Origin: an uncultured Myxococcota bacterium
GTDB lineage: Bacteria; Myxococcota; JAJVIH01; CAZXXB01
Length of the DNA stretch: 26,379 nt
Direction of reading: 5' to 3'
NCBI GenBank assembly: GCA_964644185.1
Contig: CAZXXB010000019.1
Coordinates: 1 to 26,379, forward strand
Shown here: positions 19,405-23,797 of the stretch, in pieces
Layout of the letters: every line of letters begins with the position of its first letter
Numbering within the stretch: position 1 is the stretch's first letter
The notes under the pieces: model-generated
What the model saw: the letters and a program-made list of their open reading frames with translations, nothing else
What the model was told of the DNA's origin: nothing
Databases searched by the model: none
Made by a program: the position numbers and the translations under genes

Positions 19405-19956
19405 ATGCGTCCGCTGTTTCCGGTGATTGAAAGCGACTTGCGGCTGTTGATGCAAGAAGAGTTGGCGCGCGATGTGCGCGAGGGGCGCGTGTATCGCAGC
19501 GTGCGGATATTTCCGGATTCGTTTGGGGCGTATCTCGACGACTTGCAGACGGCGGTTGGGGGTCTCACGGTGTACGAGTTTGCTGATGCGCTCGAACGGT
19601 TGATGGCGAAGCAGTATCGCGATCGGTATGGGCGTGTGTGGGCGACGCCGTGGGATGCGGCGTGGGTGCTGGCGGCGTGCGAGATGAACTTCTATTACAT
19701 GCGGGCTGTGTGTGCTGACGCGGTGAAATTTGGGCACCGGCACGTTGAGTTTGTGCGGTGGCGCGAGGTGCGGCAGGCGCGAACCGATGATCGGTGGAAG
19801 GAGGGTGATGTTGTGGTTGCGGCGGAGGCGTTGGCTTCATTGCGGGGGCGCGATCTCGCGGCGCAAGATCCGCTGGGCATCGCGCGCAAGCCGCACTCGG
19901 GGCTGACGCTGCGTGTGGGGTCGGCGCAGACACTTGCGGCGCGACGCGGGGGGTAG
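19405..19956 (+). CDS. Hypothetical protein
   Basis: ATG 19405 follows GAGGG. Normal amino-acid composition and native GTG/GCG codon bias; no motif recognised. Confidence 0.65.
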   Translation: MRPLFPVIESDLRLLMQEELARDVREGRVYRSVRIFPDSFGAYLDDLQTAVGGLTVYEFADALERLMAKQYRDRYGRVWATPWDAAWVLAACEMNFYYMRAVCADAVKFGHRHVEFVRWREVRQARTDDRWKEGDVVVAAEALASLRGRDLAAQDPLGIARKPHSGLTLRVGSAQTLAARRGG

Positions 19957-19968
19957 GCGTCTCAAGGC

Positions 19969-19998
19969 GGGCAAGGTGGGTGAGGTGGGTAACGTGGG
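19969..19998 (+). repeat. 9-bp periodic repeat forming a G3N6G3N6G3N6G3 putative G-quadruplex motif
   Basis: GGG caaggt GGG tgaggt GGG taacgt GGG, in the intergenic region. Confidence 0.6.
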
Positions 19999-20104
19999 TG
20001 AGAGGGCTTTGCGTGGAGCGCCGGGGCACGGCATACTCCGAAGTCTGGCTGCCAGTTGGCCCTGTCGACTTTTTCGGCGTTCGTTCGCCATGGACGGTTT
20101 TGCG

Positions 20105-21328
20105 ATGCGTAAGATTTTTCTCGCCCTCACGTGCTGCGTGCTCACGGTTTTTGCTGTTGCCTGCGAAGATGACACGCCGCCCGGTGAGACGAGCGTTGAC
20201 ACGGCGGGCACGGGCGACACGAGCGACACCGACAACGCGAGCGTCGCGTGCGTGAGCGATGTCGATTGCGGGTTTGGGTTTGTGTGCCGTCCGGAATTTG
20301 CGGGGGGCGAGAACCGGTGCATACCCGATGATGGCGGTGGCACGGGTGAGACTGACACTGGCGACACCGACACGGGTGGTGAGACGGGCGATACCGACAC
20401 GACGGGTGAGACGGGTGAGACCGACACGACGGGCGATGAGGTGACGTGTCGGGCGGTTGCCGATTGCGCGCCCGACCGCATTTGCGTCGTGGGTAAGTGC
20501 GAGTTGCCGACGACTTGTACGGTTGATTCGGCGCCGCAGGCTTGTCCGCTCGATCAGTTTTGCGACCCGTCGACGGGCACGTGCGTGAAAGAGAAGCTGT
20601 ACGATTGCGCGACCGACATCGAGTGCGAGGGGGTGAAAGACCCGGCTGGGTTTGAGACGCCGATTTGCGATCGCGACACGTACCGTTGCGTGGGGTGCCG
20701 CACGACGCAGGATTGCGACCCGACGAACCCTGAGAGTCCGAATTTTGATACGGCGTGCAACCCGAACCTGAATCGGTGCCAGCCGGTGTTTAGCTGCCGT
20801 CGCAAGACGGGGGGCAATGAGGGGTGCACGCAGGTGCCGGCGCCGCAGCTTTGCAACTACGAGACGGGGCTGTGTGGGCCTGAGGGGTGTGCGAACTCTG
20901 AGGCGAAGCCGTGTGCCGAGGAGAATCCGCTGACGCCGGTGTGCAATGAGAACAACGGCCTGTGCGTCCAGTGCGTGAACGATGCCGATTGCGCGGTGGG
21001 GTCGGTGTGCCGCAGCTTTGAGTGTCGCAGCTCGTCGCCAGATGATTGCGGCGGCACGTGCGGTGAGGGGCTGGTGTGCGCGGATGGGCTTTGCCAGAAC
21101 CCGAATGGCAAGGGGGTGGGTCAGGCGTGCAGTTTTAGCGGCGAGTGCAAGGCGGGGCTCGTGTGCGTGCCGGGGTTGCAGAAGTGCGAAGAGAAGTGCG
21201 CGCGCAATGCCGATTGCCCAGCGGGTGAGACGTGCGTGGCCGACCCGTCGGGTTCGGCGACGTTCTGTGATGCGGGCGGTGCGGGTGGCATCTGCTCGAT
21301 CTTCCCGATTCCGGGGTTGTGTCCGTGA
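20105..21328 (+). CDS. Cys-rich repeat lipoprotein
   Basis: Signal MRKIFLALTCCVLTVFAVA-C, T/G/D/E-rich linkers, and 46 Cys after the lipobox arranged as eleven 4-Cys modules plus a terminal pair (hand count). Start at 20105 or 20090. Confidence 0.85.
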   Translation: MRKIFLALTCCVLTVFAVACEDDTPPGETSVDTAGTGDTSDTDNASVACVSDVDCGFGFVCRPEFAGGENRCIPDDGGGTGETDTGDTDTGGETGDTDTTGETGETDTTGDEVTCRAVADCAPDRICVVGKCELPTTCTVDSAPQACPLDQFCDPSTGTCVKEKLYDCATDIECEGVKDPAGFETPICDRDTYRCVGCRTTQDCDPTNPESPNFDTACNPNLNRCQPVFSCRRKTGGNEGCTQVPAPQLCNYETGLCGPEGCANSEAKPCAEENPLTPVCNENNGLCVQCVNDADCAVGSVCRSFECRSSSPDDCGGTCGEGLVCADGLCQNPNGKGVGQACSFSGECKAGLVCVPGLQKCEEKCARNADCPAGETCVADPSGSATFCDAGGAGGICSIFPIPGLCP

Positions 21329-22176
21329 CCGCTGAGATCGTTCGAATTGAGAACGTCGAGCTGCATCTCGCGCATGCGGATGAGCTTGATTTGCAGTGGG
21401 TGGGGCGCGACGACCTGAAGCTGCAGCTTCATGCGGCGTGGATGAAGGTTCACGCGAGCGACCTTCCGTTGAATCCGCGATTGGTGGGTAAGCCGGGCGT
21501 GGGCAAGACGACGCTTGCGTATGCGGTGGCGCGCGAGTTGGGGCGGCCCGTGTATCTGTTTCAGGCGACGATGGATACGCGTCCGGAAGATTTGATTGTG
21601 ACGCCGGTGATTGGTGATGGGCAGAGGTTGCGTTACGTGGCGTCGTCGATTGTGACGGCGATGGTGAAGGGTGGTGTGGCGATTATTGATGAGGGGAATC
21701 GGATGAGTGAGAAGGCGTGGGCGTCGCTCGCGCCGTTGCTTGATCAGCGTCGGTATGTCGAGAGCATCGTGGCGGGGGTGAAGATCAAGGCGCACCCTGA
21801 TTTTCGTGTGTGCGCGACGATGAATGAAGACGCGAGCACGTTTGATTTGCCCGAGTACATTCAATCGCGGTTGCAGCCGCAGATTGTGATTGATTTTCCA
21901 GAGGCGGATGAGGAGCGGTCGATTCTGGCGCGTGCGGTGCCGTTTGCCGACGACGAGATACTTGATTACGTGGTGACGTTTTTGCAGAACGCGCATGGTG
22001 CGGATGAGCGGTACACGGTGCGCGATGGCGTGAATCTGACGCGGTATGCGTTGAAGCTGTCGCAGGCGGAGAAGGTTCCGCGTGAGGGTGAGTTGCACCG
22101 GGCGAAGCGTGCGGAGTTGTTGGCGCGTGCGGCGAAGATGATTCTTGGTGACGACGCGGAGGCGTATTTGCCGTAG
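21325..22176 (+). CDS. MoxR/CbbQ-NirQ-like AAA+ ATPase (AAA_5 type)
   Basis: Walker A GKPGVGKT, Walker B IIDEGN, sensor ATMN and arginine finger SRL. GTG start overlaps the upstream TGA (GTGA, 21325-21328). Confidence 0.88.
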   Translation: MTAEIVRIENVELHLAHADELDLQWVGRDDLKLQLHAAWMKVHASDLPLNPRLVGKPGVGKTTLAYAVARELGRPVYLFQATMDTRPEDLIVTPVIGDGQRLRYVASSIVTAMVKGGVAIIDEGNRMSEKAWASLAPLLDQRRYVESIVAGVKIKAHPDFRVCATMNEDASTFDLPEYIQSRLQPQIVIDFPEADEERSILARAVPFADDEILDYVVTFLQNAHGADERYTVRDGVNLTRYALKLSQAEKVPREGELHRAKRAELLARAAKMILGDDAEAYLP

Positions 22177-22195
22177 GGGGTGGAGTGATGGGGAA

Positions 22196-22621
22196 GTGAG
22201 CCTCGCACACCGCCATTCACACGTTCATCTGCTTGTGCACGTGGTGTTCAAAGTAAAGCATCGGCAGCCGACAATCGCGACGGCTGAGCAAGAGTTTTTT
22301 CTTCGCGGAGTGATAACGGCGCACTGCCACTCGATGGATGTCTGGGTCTGTGGTGCCGGGGCGGCGAGCGACCACCTGCATCTTTTGTTGCGCCTCAACC
22401 CGACGGTTGCGATCAGTGATCTCGTAGGTCAACTCAAAGGCAAGTCTGCGTGGTTGTGGAACAGAGAGCATGTCGATTGGCCGATGCTCAAATGGCAGGA
22501 CGGATACTGGGCTGAGACGGTGAGCCCGCGGGAGTTAGAGCGCGTGGCGGCGTATGTCGATCGACAACGCGAGCATCATGGACAGAATCGGCTCGCCGAA
22601 GAGTTCGAACCGGGGCCGTGA
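22196..22621 (+). mobile_element. tnpA: IS200/IS605-family HUH (Y1) transposase TnpA
   Basis: N-terminal HLLVHVVFKVKHR, HUH motif DHLHLL, LVGQLKGKS, WQDGY and catalytic YxxxQ (AAYVDRQREHH). Probable GTG start at 22196. Confidence 0.9.
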
Positions 22622-22675
22622 CGTGTGCCGCGCAAACGAGTCGCGCGGCAAGGATAGAAAGTTTGTCGGGGTCCC
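22622..22675 (+). repeat. REP-like hairpin repeat, copy 1 (54 bp)
   Basis: cgtg TGCCGCGC aaacgagtc GCGCGGCA aggatagaaagtttgtcggggtccc: perfect 8-bp stem, starting at the base after the tnpA stop. Confidence 0.9.
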
Positions 22676-22694
22676 GTTGCGAAAGGACGAGGGG

Positions 22695-22748
22695 CGTGTG
22701 CCGCGCAAACGAGTCGCGCGGCAAGGATAGAAAGTTTGTCGGGGTCCC
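22695..22748 (+). repeat. REP-like hairpin repeat, copy 2 (identical 54-bp direct repeat)
   Basis: Identical to 22622-22675, separated from it by 19 bp (period 73). Confidence 0.9.
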
Positions 22749-22830
22749 TCAGTGCTGGCGGGGTGCAGGGCAGTTGAGTGGGGGTGTCGGGTAGCGGGTT
22801 GATTTTGGTGAGGATGCGCGTGTCGAGGGG

Positions 22831-22864
22831 TTCCATCCTTGCCGCGCGACTTGTTTGCGCGGCA
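22831..22864 (-). repeat. REP-like hairpin repeat, copy 3 (inverted, 34-bp core)
   Basis: Reverse complement TGCCGCGCaaacaagtcGCGCGGCAaggatggaa matches copies 1 and 2 at 32 of 34 positions. Both mismatches fall outside the stem. Confidence 0.88.
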
Positions 22865-22885
22865 GACTGAGAGAGGGGGCTCAAC

Positions 22886-23797
22886 ATGTACGAGCAGAAA
22901 GACTTTGGGTCGGCGCGAGAGTTGATATCTTATCTCGTCTACGACGACGGCGCGCGTGCGGGCAGTAAGTTCGTGGGAGAGGAAGTAAGGTACTTCTATC
23001 GGGGTCAAGGCTGCGCCAGTTGGCAACTCACGCCAGCGGCTCATCGAAAATTGGACGCGAACGAGACACCGCAACAGCGCGTGGCGCGCGAAATCAAAGC
23101 AATGCGCGCGTTCCTGAATTTTGGTGCGTTACAAGGCTCCCCGCAGGTCTTTCCAGATTGGGGGATTGCGCTGTCGAGGTTGATGAAAGGCCCGGAGGTG
23201 ACGGCATGGCCGCCGCGTGAGTGGCTCAGTACGCTCGCCGTGATGCAGCACTGCGGCGTGCCCACGCGATTGCTTGATTGGTCGTTGTCACCCCTCGTTG
23301 CAGCGATGTTTGCGGTCTGGCAGTTCGCCAAAGATGCGGAGCGTCTCGTGGAGGGAGTGAAAGACGAGAAGGACCGCAGACTGTCCGTTTGGCTTTATGT
23401 TGCGCCGTTCAAGGATAACCTGTGGGTACTGAGGGACGACGCGTGGCCGCTCTACGGTTACGTCGCCGTTCCTGCAGCTGCTACGCCGCACCTGTGGCGT
23501 CAGCGGGGCTTGTTCACGCTGGTTCCGGAGATTGATGGCGCACCGAAGCCATGCATGACGTTGGACGAAATTGAAAAACTGACGACTAGTTTGGTGTCGC
23601 CGGAACTCACGCACTGCACGCTGCCATGGGAGCAGGCGAAAGAACTTTCGGAATTGCTAAAGCGTCACGGGACGTTTCTCTTCGACTTTTTTGAAGGGAA
23701 CCAAGGCGTCGTTGAGTACTTGCAGCATGAGGAGCGCCTCGAGAAAGCCCATACGTTACTTAGCAAAGACCGAGCTACGGGCGAACTCGGCGCTTGA
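22886..23797 (+). CDS. FRG domain-containing protein
   Basis: FYRGQ, QHCGVPTRLLDWSLSPLVAAMFA and QRGLFT correspond to the FRG family motifs (F/Y)RGQ, QHYGxPTRLLDW and QxGxF. Preceded by GAGAGGGGG. Confidence 0.88.
   Translation: MYEQKDFGSARELISYLVYDDGARAGSKFVGEEVRYFYRGQGCASWQLTPAAHRKLDANETPQQRVAREIKAMRAFLNFGALQGSPQVFPDWGIALSRLMKGPEVTAWPPREWLSTLAVMQHCGVPTRLLDWSLSPLVAAMFAVWQFAKDAERLVEGVKDEKDRRLSVWLYVAPFKDNLWVLRDDAWPLYGYVAVPAAATPHLWRQRGLFTLVPEIDGAPKPCMTLDEIEKLTTSLVSPELTHCTLPWEQAKELSELLKRHGTFLFDFFEGNQGVVEYLQHEERLEKAHTLLSKDRATGELGA

What the first reader, a model, noticed from the sequence alone, without database searches (positions are those of the whole stretch)
22177..22864. IS200-type HUH transposase with a one-sided cluster of REP-like hairpins: a possible non-RAYT REP/REPIN-type system
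Seen in the sequence: an intact Y1 TnpA (HLH, YxxxQ). Only 19 bp separate it from the upstream gene, with no hairpin there. Directly after its stop are two identical 54-bp units and, 82 bp further on, an inverted 34-bp copy. All three keep a perfect TGCCGCGC/GCGCGGCA stem, and the variants fall only in the loop and tail. Established: IS200/IS605 elements need a hairpin at each end, whereas REP/REPIN arrays are served by RAYT proteins. This protein looks IS200-like (HxVFxxKxR, WQxGY) rather than RAYT-like. Inference: a domesticated IS200-clade TnpA that spreads or maintains its own palindromic repeat family, or an IS caught amplifying its right end. The 4 nt at the 5' foot of the stem (CGTG, CGTG, AGTC) are candidate guide sequences.
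Basis: partly seen in the sequence, partly recalled or inferred. Interest (0 to 1): 0.75.

Follow-up and report, generated by a model that had tools for sequence, protein, structure and literature searches.

The report
IS200-like transposase with own hairpin repeats
A single-copy, immobile-looking IS200-type HUH gene sits beside three copies of a palindromic repeat that also occurs elsewhere in the genome. This is the layout of REP/RAYT systems, but the enzyme comes from a branch of the family recorded in the literature as having no REPs.

Summary
An intact 141-aa Y1 HUH gene (GTG 22196 to stop 22621) starts 19 nt after an AAA_5 ATPase gene. It is followed by two identical 54-nt units and an inverted 37-nt copy, all with a perfect 8-bp stem.

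The protein is neither a canonical IS200 transposase nor a RAYT. It carries the Y---Q--HH signature of Quentin et al. 2018 subclass 1.2. In a tree it falls outside both the IS200/IS605 reference clade and the RayT clade.

The hairpin is not confined to this locus:
- Three further solid copies lie at contig ends or scaffold gaps of this 392-contig MAG.
- One of them carries a compensatory stem change.
- Public runs show extra copies with other flanks.

The pattern is general. Two other Y1 genes in this genome each have their own repeat family. Of 30 homologous loci in the phylum, 16 carry repeated hairpins in their flanks, against 0 of 22 control regions. The families are dispersed, with 2 to 73 matches per genome.

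Best reading: a REPtron-like domesticated class-1 Y1 enzyme with a small cognate REP/REPIN-like family. Enzyme activity is inferred, not shown. The proposed 5' guide tetranucleotides are not conserved. Bertels 2017 partly anticipated the idea with its "RAYT-like IS200 Group 3".

The parts
22196..22621 (+). Y1 HUH endonuclease/transposase-like gene: 141 aa, GTG start, TGA stop. Motifs: HVVFKVKHR (beta1), DHLH (HUH, H60/H62), WQDGY (W100), YVDRQREHH (catalytic Y120, Q124, HH). Short C-terminal tail ending EEFEPGP.
   Evidence: Pfam Y1_Tnp 72.8 bits; NCBIfam transpos_IS200 72.8 bits against a cut-off of 55; REP_Tyr_transpos 25 bits against a cut-off of 80; invariant columns R23, H60, H62, K81, W100, Y120; the Y1-family solved structures matched by sequence are all IS200/IS605 TnpAs.
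22177..22195 (+). 19-nt spacer between the AAA_5 ATPase stop (TAG 22174-22176) and the Y1 start. It contains GGAG (22183-22186). There is no hairpin and no room for an IS200-type left end.
   Evidence: no repeat or palindrome upstream; upstream gene is AAA_5, 69.9 bits.
22622..22675 (+). Repeat unit a. The hairpin is at 22626-22650 (8-bp stem, 9-nt loop) and is followed by the conserved tail AAGGATAGAAAGTT... The unit begins directly after the TGA stop.
22676..22694 (+). Unique 19-nt spacer between units a and b.
   Evidence: A run X1 unitig bridges 22652-22726.
22695..22773 (+). Repeat unit b. The hairpin is at 22699-22723. The unit is identical to a over 54 nt. Homology to dispersed copies (C175, C240) continues to about 22773, giving a full unit of about 75 nt.
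   Evidence: nhmmer match 22696-22773, E = 8.5e-19.
22831..22867 (-). Repeat unit c, inverted. The hairpin is at 22840-22864. The loop variant is AAACAAGTC and the tail is shortened (AAGGATGGAA).
   Evidence: (z = -3.3).
22695..22867 (.). REPIN-like doublet. Units b and c, in inverted orientation, can pair into a long hairpin of about 30 bp around a loop of about 110 nt.
   Evidence: MFE -69.6 kcal/mol for 22610-22885, z = -6.3; 0 of 200 shuffles fold as well.

Best explanation
This is a REPtron-like module built on a class-1 (IS200-like) Y1 HUH enzyme rather than a class-2 RAYT.

The gene is a fixed, single-copy chromosomal gene in a housekeeping neighbourhood. It has lost, or never had, the left-end hairpin it would need to move itself. 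Its product is inferred to recognise the 8-bp-stem/9-nt-loop hairpin in single-stranded DNA, for example on the lagging-strand template. There it would cut and rejoin DNA beside the hairpin using HUH H60/H62, Y120 and Q124. In this way it would mobilise, copy or maintain in trans a small lineage-specific family of roughly 75-nt hairpin-plus-tail units. Some of these units are arranged as inverted, REPIN-like doublets.

Shown here:
- the anatomy of the locus;
- intact catalytic motifs;
- the placement of the protein outside both IS200 and RAYT;
- dispersal of the repeat;
- a compensatory stem change in one copy;
- recurrence of the same gene-plus-own-hairpin layout at many homologous genes.

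Inferred: that this protein is the enzyme acting on these hairpins, which strand is active, where the cleavage sites lie, and any benefit to the host.
For: Not an IS:
- Only 19 nt separate the gene from the upstream AAA_5 gene, with no hairpin there.
- The genome holds one copy of this gene. The two other Y1 genes are 33% identical or weaker.
- The context is NtrC-like regulator, PBP-type transglycosylase, RimO-like enzyme and trigger factor.

Class of the protein:
- The Y---Q--HH and WQ motifs are present.
- 119 of the 150 best library hits share Y---Q--HH.
- In the tree, E. coli RayT plus the genome's RAYT-like gene form a far outgroup (SH-aLRT 99).
- Four named IS200/IS605 transposases form one clade (96), and that clade excludes the window protein.
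- Among Y1-family structures, PDB sequence hits are IS200/IS605 TnpAs only.

Dispersal of the repeat in the genome:
- nhmmer finds C175:4862-4933, C240:14-89 (the same copy as the C313 end) and C181:6415-6503, plus a marginal hit in C38.
- All solid copies sit at contig ends or N gaps and look intergenic.
- The C240 copy changes the top stem pair C-G to G-C.

Evidence from public runs:
- Run X1 lays 19 unitigs on the stretch.
- Summed word depth is 126-239 over 22610-22745, against 15.9 on the gene.
- Loose ends in X1, X2 and X3 show copies with other flanks.

Lineage-specific, as REPs are: no match in 40 relatives, in 185,579 species genomes or in JGI metagenome contigs.

Parallels within the same genome: the C171 Y1 gene (same class) and the C96 RAYT-like gene are each flanked by their own repeat family, with a few dispersed copies.

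Parallels in the window protein's own clade: the contigs of P0025 and P0032 carry hairpin arrays on both sides of the gene.

Parallels across the phylum:
- 16 of 30 homologous loci have at least 2 copies of one perfect hairpin (stem of 7 bp or more) within 500 bp. The figure is 0 of 22 for control regions 1-1.5 kb away.
- Flanking hairpins recur genome-wide. Counts below are sites or matches; reversed-pattern controls gave 0 throughout.
  - G020: 73 matches, many as inverted pairs about 190 bp apart.
  - G268: 16 sites, including compensatory variants.
  - G024: 14.
  - G030: 12.
  - G128: 6.
Against: - No biochemical or polymorphism evidence of mobility was obtained.
- The family is small in the assembly: 3 local and 3 solid dispersed copies. 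The depth excess in X1 is a sum over unitigs and is not a copy number.
- Repeats lie on one side only here, unlike canonical REPtrons and most homologous loci.
- No conserved 5' tetranucleotide such as GT[AG]G is present.
- One near-complete relative (G053) has the flanking repeat only at the gene, with no dispersal.
- Quentin et al. 2018 found no REPs for subclass 1.2.
- Control regions are more coding than the flanks, so that contrast is inflated.
- A second enzyme in the genome, such as the C96 RAYT-like protein, cannot be formally excluded as the one acting on these hairpins.
Confidence: 0.6

Rival explanations
1. Relic of an ordinary IS200-type insertion sequence. The element lost its left end to a deletion or to the neighbouring gene. 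The downstream units and the few dispersed copies are dead MITE/PATE-like right-end derivatives from a past burst. The gene is drifting and no longer acts on them.
For: The protein passes NCBIfam transpos_IS200. The hairpin directly follows the stop codon, as an IS200 right end would. The family is small. The C181 copy has a degenerate stem and a partial internal duplication.
Against: - The ORF is intact and keeps every catalytic residue and the full clade-typical C-terminus.
- The protein lies outside the canonical IS200/IS605 clade.
- No second copy of the gene exists.
- Units a and b are 100% identical, which implies recent copying.
- The same gene-plus-own-hairpin layout recurs at 16 of 30 diverged homologous loci and at two clade-mates. 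Independent decay would not produce this repeatedly.
Confidence: 0.22
2. The hairpins are unrelated to the Y1 gene. They would be regulatory or terminator-like palindromes, or repeats moved by another enzyme, that happen to cluster in this intergenic space.
For: The genome is rich in other intergenic repeats, for example ACGTATGAGGGCG (13 matches) and (GGGACCGGT)n (25 matches). It also encodes a RAYT-like protein on C96. REPs are known to stabilise upstream mRNA (established knowledge).
Against: - Three of about seven assembled copies lie within 250 nt of this gene in a 3.8-Mb genome.
- No T-run follows the stem, so it is not a canonical intrinsic terminator.
- Copies share about 45 nt of non-palindromic tail, so they are one repeat family.
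- The C96 gene has its own, different 106-nt repeats.
- Each homologous Y1 gene elsewhere has a different cognate hairpin.
Confidence: 0.1
3. Assembly artefact. The 73-bp duplication and the inverted copy would come from mis-assembly of a repeat in a fragmented MAG.
For: The MAG has 392 contigs, and the repeat coincides with contig ends and N gaps elsewhere.
Against: An independent run (X1) with strain-level SNPs reproduces every junction with overlapping unitigs, including the unique a-to-b spacer and the b-to-c spacer.
Confidence: 0.03

Closest known systems
REP/RAYT (TnpAREP) systems, 'REPtrons' and REPINs: E. coli RayT with REP/BIME; Pseudomonas RAYT with REPINs
   Same: A single-copy, non-mobile Y1 HUH gene sits next to clustered copies of a lineage-specific palindromic repeat. 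The repeat also occurs dispersed in intergenic DNA. Inverted doublets can form long hairpins. Several Y1 genes in one genome each have their own repeat family.
   Different: - The enzyme is class 1 (YxxxQ, with HH), not class 2 (YxxxNP). REP_Tyr_transpos scores 25 bits against a cut-off of 80.
- It is a distant outgroup to RayT in the tree.
- There is no 5' GT[AG]G foot.
- Repeats lie on one side only at this locus.
- The family has a handful to tens of copies, not hundreds.
Quentin et al. 2018 TnpAY1 subclass 1.2 (PMC6006769)
   Same: The Y---Q--HH signature and the WQ motif are present. Genomic copy number is low, IS200 terminal structures are absent, and the protein is close to but distinct from IS200 transposases.
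   Different: - The subclass was reported with 'REP: no' and as mostly Cyanobacteria and Bacteroidetes.
- The window protein has DHLH rather than DH[IV]H.
- It lacks the roughly 30-aa conserved C-terminal domain. It belongs to a clade with a short ...(W/F)EP tail. The genome's second copy, on C171, does have the long FDERYVWD-type tail.
- Hairpin repeat families are present here.
Bertels et al. 2017 'RAYT-like IS200 Group 3' (PMC5581495)
   Same: An IS200-family group with no duplicates and no plasmid copies, yet with abundant flanking 16-mers. This is the same qualitative behaviour as seen here.
   Different: Identity of that group with the Y---Q--HH group could not be checked, because no supplement is held. 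That paper gave no repeat anatomy, no hairpins and no REPIN-like doublets for the group.
IS200/IS605 insertion sequences (IS200, IS608, ISDra2) and their MITE/PATE derivatives
   Same: The Y1 HUH fold family, YxxxQ, and a hairpin just 3' of tnpA like a right end. The closest solved structures by sequence belong to this family.
   Different: There is no left-end hairpin, no tnpB and no multiple identical copies. The protein lies outside the reference clade. Inverted arrangement of flanking repeats at homologous loci is not an IS200/IS605 feature.
TIRYTs (terminal-inverted-repeat-associated tyrosine transposases; Di Nocera et al., as summarised in PMC6006769)
   Same: At several homologous loci (G128, G053, G268) the gene is bracketed by long inverted repeats of 57-218 nt, with moderately abundant related palindromic elements elsewhere.
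   Different: TIRYTs are mostly class 2.1 proteins with C-terminal HTH domains. The proteins here are short class-1 cores. The window locus itself has no upstream repeat.

Membership tests
IS200/IS605 insertion sequence (TnpAY1 subclass 1.1) | Y1 HUH transposase with HUH and YxxxQ motifs, passing the family HMM | tested here: met
   Pfam Y1_Tnp 72.8 bits; NCBIfam transpos_IS200 72.8 bits against a cut-off of 55. DHLH and YVDRQ are present.
IS200/IS605 insertion sequence (TnpAY1 subclass 1.1) | Subterminal hairpins at both the left and the right end of the element | tested here: not met
   Only 19 nt separate the gene from the upstream gene's stop. No palindrome or repeat lies upstream.
IS200/IS605 insertion sequence (TnpAY1 subclass 1.1) | Multiple near-identical gene copies per genome | tested here: not met
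   One copy of this gene is present. The other two Y1 genes are 33% identical or more distant. Caveat: the MAG is 89% complete and repeats can collapse in assembly.
IS200/IS605 insertion sequence (TnpAY1 subclass 1.1) | Phylogenetic placement with named IS200/IS605 transposases | tested here: not met
   The reference clade (SH-aLRT 96) excludes the window protein. This was a quick tree and the backbone support is weak.
RAYT / TnpAREP (class 2) | Y motif YxxxNP, and passing the REP_Tyr_transpos HMM | tested here: not met
   The motif is YVDRQREHH. NF047646 scores 25 bits against a cut-off of 80. RayT is a long-branch outgroup. No RayT structure appears among the PDB sequence hits.
RAYT / TnpAREP (class 2) | Gene flanked by cognate REPs (REPtron), typically on both sides | tested here: inconclusive
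   Three units lie downstream and none upstream. Homologous loci mostly have both sides.
RAYT / TnpAREP (class 2) | Conserved 5' GT[AG]G tetranucleotide at the hairpin foot | tested here: not met
   The 5' feet are CGTG, CGTG, AGTC, GGGG, GGGG and CAAG.
RAYT / TnpAREP (class 2) | Cognate palindromes dispersed in intergenic DNA of the same genome | tested here: met
   C175, C240/C313 and C181 carry copies, plus a marginal one in C38. Extra flanks appear in runs X1-X3. The copy number is low or uncertain.
TnpAY1 subclass 1.2 (Quentin 2018) | Y---Q--HH signature and WQ motif | tested here: met
   YVDRQREHH and WQDGY are present. 119 of the 150 nearest library proteins share the signature.
TnpAY1 subclass 1.2 (Quentin 2018) | Conserved subclass-specific C-terminal domain (about 30 aa) | tested here: not met
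   The window protein ends 13 aa after HH, with a clade-typical ...EEFEPGP tail. The C171 paralogue and the Persicobacter protein have the long ...F(D/N)E.Y.WD tail.
TnpAY1 subclass 1.2 (Quentin 2018) | Low copy number and no IS200-type ends | tested here: met
   There are 1-3 diverged copies per genome in 26 of 401 genomes of the phylum.
TnpAY1 subclass 1.2 (Quentin 2018) | No associated REP sequences (as reported) | tested here: not met
   Hairpin repeat families flank this gene and 16 of 30 homologous loci, and they are dispersed in several genomes.

The most novel reading that the evidence does not exclude
The Y---Q--HH class-1 Y1 proteins as a group may be a second lineage of REP/REPIN-maintaining domesticated transposases. 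The group includes a previously undescribed short-tailed '(W/F)EP' clade, to which this gene belongs. This lineage would be either an independent domestication of IS200 or the ancestral bridge between IS200 and RAYTs. Each gene would pair with its own small hairpin family. This would contradict the published 'no REP' assignment for subclass 1.2.
Probability: 0.45. Interest if true: 0.65.

Novelty: new variant of a known kind. Interest (0 to 1): 0.55.

Why it matters
REP/REPIN populations and their RAYT partners are the best-studied case of a transposase co-opted by its host. How often and from where this arose is an open question.

If a class-1, IS200-like enzyme of only 141 aa serves its own hairpin family, two things follow. 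REP association is not confined to the YxxxNP RAYT class. And the proposal by Bertels et al. of a single domestication, with an IS200-like intermediate, can be tested against the alternative of repeated domestication.

The system is also compact: a 25-nt hairpin, a tail of about 45 nt and a minimal Y1 core. That makes it a convenient substrate/enzyme pair for studying ssDNA hairpin recognition without a GTAG-type guide.

Tried and rejected
- Exact hairpin pattern in the own genome: only the three local copies. Looser blastn and nhmmer searches were needed to find the dispersed, diverged copies.
- Hairpin-plus-tail pattern in 185,579 species genomes and in JGI metagenome contigs: no match. With up to 3 mismatches in 40 relatives: no match.
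- Rfam on 22100-23000 at E <= 1: nothing.
- Word-indexed protein search: only the protein itself. The exhaustive search was needed.
- Empty-site/synteny test: no orthologue of the upstream AAA_5 gene in the three nearest genomes. No empty-site allele could be sought.
- A conserved AAA-ATPase-plus-Y1 gene pair was considered, because the P0025 contig also has an AAA+ gene upstream. It was rejected because the two ATPases are unrelated.
- Truncation of the C-terminus by the repeat unit that abuts the stop codon was considered. It was rejected because the tail matches the clade's normal end.
- Contigs of P0002 and P0043 had no retrievable DNA, and the P0012 contig was too short.
- The Bertels 2017 supplement is not held, so IS200 Group 3 could not be matched to the HH group.
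- A 16-mer census of the genome is dominated by poly-Asp coding repeats and poly-C runs, and did not single out this family.

Full report
**What is there**

The window is contig C19 of a 3.8-Mb, 63% GC MAG of 392 contigs, 89% complete.

- An AAA_5 ATPase gene ends with TAG at 22174-22176. After 19 nt, which include GGAG at 22183-22186, a 141-aa ORF starts at GTG 22196 and stops at 22619-22621.
- The next base opens a 54-nt unit at 22622-22675. It recurs 100% identical at 22695-22748.
- An inverted 37-nt copy (92% complementary) lies at 22831-22867. That is 18 nt before the ATG of an FRG-domain gene.
- Each copy has a perfect 8-bp stem and a 9-nt loop. Copy c differs by one loop base and in its tail.
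- Units b and c can pair into a long REPIN-like hairpin with z = -6.3.
- Rfam finds nothing in the region.
- The arrangement is not an assembly artefact. Overlapping unitigs of an independent public run (X1), carrying strain-level SNPs, reproduce every junction, including the unique a-to-b spacer.

**What the protein is**

- It matches Pfam Y1_Tnp (72.8 bits) and NCBIfam transpos_IS200 (72.8 bits, cut-off 55). It fails REP_Tyr_transpos (25 bits, cut-off 80).
- The Y1-family solved structures matched by sequence are IS200/IS605 transposases (2f4f, 2xm3, 2a6m; E about 1e-5). RayT is not among the hits.
- The HUH histidines (H60, H62), W100, Y120 and Q124 are in invariant or nearly invariant columns.
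- The Y motif reads YVDRQREHH. Y---Q--HH together with WQ is the signature Quentin et al. 2018 give for TnpAY1 subclass 1.2. They describe that subclass as a low-copy, non-IS sister of IS200 transposases and score it 'REP: no'.
- An exhaustive search finds 4391 relatives at E <= 1e-3, the nearest at 45% identity. Of the 150 best, 119 carry Y---Q--HH.
- In a quick ML tree, E. coli RayT and this genome's RAYT-like gene form a distant outgroup (99). Four named IS200/IS605 transposases form one clade (96). The window protein lies outside both, with P0002, P0025, P0032, P0043 and P0064.
- That clade has a short ...(W/F)EP tail instead of the subclass's long C-terminal domain. The long domain is present in the genome's second copy on C171.
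- The protein is therefore subclass-1.2-like, in a clade not described in that paper.

**Is it an IS?**

No left end is possible in 19 nt, and no palindrome lies upstream. The genome has only this copy. The other two Y1 genes are 33% identical or weaker. The neighbourhood is core chromosome: NtrC-like regulator, PBP-type transglycosylase, RimO-like enzyme and trigger factor.

**Is the hairpin a dispersed family?**

- The exact hairpin occurs only three times.
- blastn and an nhmmer profile find solid copies of the roughly 75-nt unit (hairpin plus conserved tail) at C175:4862-4933, C240:14-89 (the same copy as the C313 end) and C181:6415-6503. There is also a marginal hit in C38.
- Every solid copy abuts a contig end or an N gap. 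That is what a repeat does to a short-read assembly.
- All solid copies look intergenic.
- The C240 copy changes the top stem pair from C-G to G-C, C38 has a G-T wobble, and C181 is degenerate.
- In run X1, 19 unitigs lie on the stretch. Summed depth is 126-239 over the units, against 15.9 on the gene. Loose ends in three runs show copies with other flanks. This indicates more copies but is not a copy number.
- The family is lineage-specific. There was no match in 40 relatives, in 185,579 species genomes or in JGI metagenome contigs.
- The conserved flank is the 3' tail, which is the 5' flank on the other strand. Dispersed copies are preceded by a G-run.

**Is the gene-hairpin link specific?**

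Within the same genome:
- The C171 Y1 gene (same class) has its own hairpin: three copies around the gene, an inverted variant, and one exact copy elsewhere on C26.
- The RAYT-like C96 gene is bracketed by its own 106-nt repeats, with partial copies on four other contigs.

In the window protein's own clade:
- The two contigs with usable flanks (P0025, P0032) carry hairpin arrays on both sides of the gene.

Across 401 genomes of the phylum:
- Homologues occur in 26 genomes, at 1-3 diverged copies each.
- 16 of 30 loci have at least 2 copies of one perfect hairpin within 500 bp, against 0 of 22 control regions. The controls are more coding, so the contrast is inflated.
- Several loci are bracketed by long inverted repeats of 57-218 nt.

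The flanking hairpins recur elsewhere in those genomes. Reversed-pattern controls gave 0 throughout.

| Genome | Matches or sites | Note |
|---|---|---|
| G020 | 73 matches | many as inverted pairs about 190 bp apart |
| G268 | 16 sites | includes compensatory stem variants |
| G024 | 14 matches | |
| G030 | 12 matches | |
| G128 | 6 matches | |
| G053 | 2 matches | only the pair at the gene |

**Interpretation**

The best-supported reading (about 0.6) is a REPtron-like module. A fixed class-1 Y1 HUH enzyme would act in trans on a small, lineage-specific family of hairpin-plus-tail units. This is analogous to RAYT/REP, but the enzyme comes from the IS200 side of the family. Activity, the active strand and the cleavage sites are inferred.

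The main rival (about 0.2) is a dead IS200 with MITE-like right-end relics. It fits the small family. It does not fit the intact gene, the identical a and b units, or the recurrence of the layout at many diverged homologues.

An unrelated palindrome cluster (about 0.1) and an assembly artefact (about 0.03) are unlikely.

**Relation to the literature**

Bertels et al. 2017 noted a 'RAYT-like IS200 Group 3' with no duplicates and abundant flanking 16-mers. They raised the possibility of a single domestication. Quentin et al. 2018 defined subclass 1.2 but found no REPs. I found no later paper on this subclass in the library.

This finding is therefore a new variant of a known kind. It gives concrete repeat anatomy, and a recurrent association, for a class recorded as having no REPs. 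Its guide-sequence detail and its degree of novelty are not.

Noticed in passing
G000 contig C171 (L001:400-1731): A second Y---Q--HH Y1 gene (L001 684-1133, with the long FDERYVWD-type tail). It has its own hairpin (CCTGCGGC/GCCGCAGG stem): two 64-nt units upstream, an inverted variant just downstream and a third copy further on. One exact copy lies on C26.
   Followed up: partly
G000 contig C96 (L003:959-2070): A RAYT-like Y1 gene (L003 1387-1887, Y...NP-type motif, Pfam 22 bits). It is bracketed by two 106-nt repeat units on each side, with inverted arms. Partial copies lie on C352, C245, C297 and C173, mostly near contig ends.
   Followed up: partly
window 22886-23797: The FRG-domain gene matches PADLOC candidate defence family PDC-S15 (77 bits). 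In run X1, two alternative unitigs leave position 22898 (depths 6.9 and 9.5, against 15.9 upstream), and one diverges after 22960. The region just past the repeat cluster is therefore strain-variable.
   Followed up: partly
proteins P0003, P0004, P0006-P0011 and others: Many of the best library hits are proteins of 270-300 aa with two Y1 stretches, that is, tandem fused Y1 domains. These are covalent 'dimers' of an enzyme that normally works as a dimer.
   Followed up: no
G000: C240:1-170, C313:1-110 and other contig ends: Other dispersed intergenic repeats accompany some hairpin copies: ACGTATGAGGGCG (13 matches) and (GGGACCGGT)n-like tracts (25 matches, 17 of them within 300 nt of contig ends). 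This suggests BIME-like mosaic elements.
   Followed up: partly
G000 genome-wide: The most frequent 16-mers are poly-C/G (232) and GAC/GAT trinucleotide runs encoding poly-Asp linkers. The poly-C/G count could be biological tracts or a sequencing artefact.
   Followed up: no
window 19913-21328: A 471-aa Cys-rich, Asp/Thr/Gly-repeat secreted-looking protein with no Pfam match lies directly upstream of the AAA_5 gene and overlaps it by 10 nt.
   Followed up: no
L030 (G128:C1:12340-13410), L034 (G053:C2): Homologous Y1 genes are bracketed by very long inverted repeats: 218-nt arms at 97% in G128 and about 220 nt in G053. In G053 the repeat occurs nowhere else in a 4-contig genome, so the gene is TIR-bracketed without a dispersed family.
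   Followed up: partly
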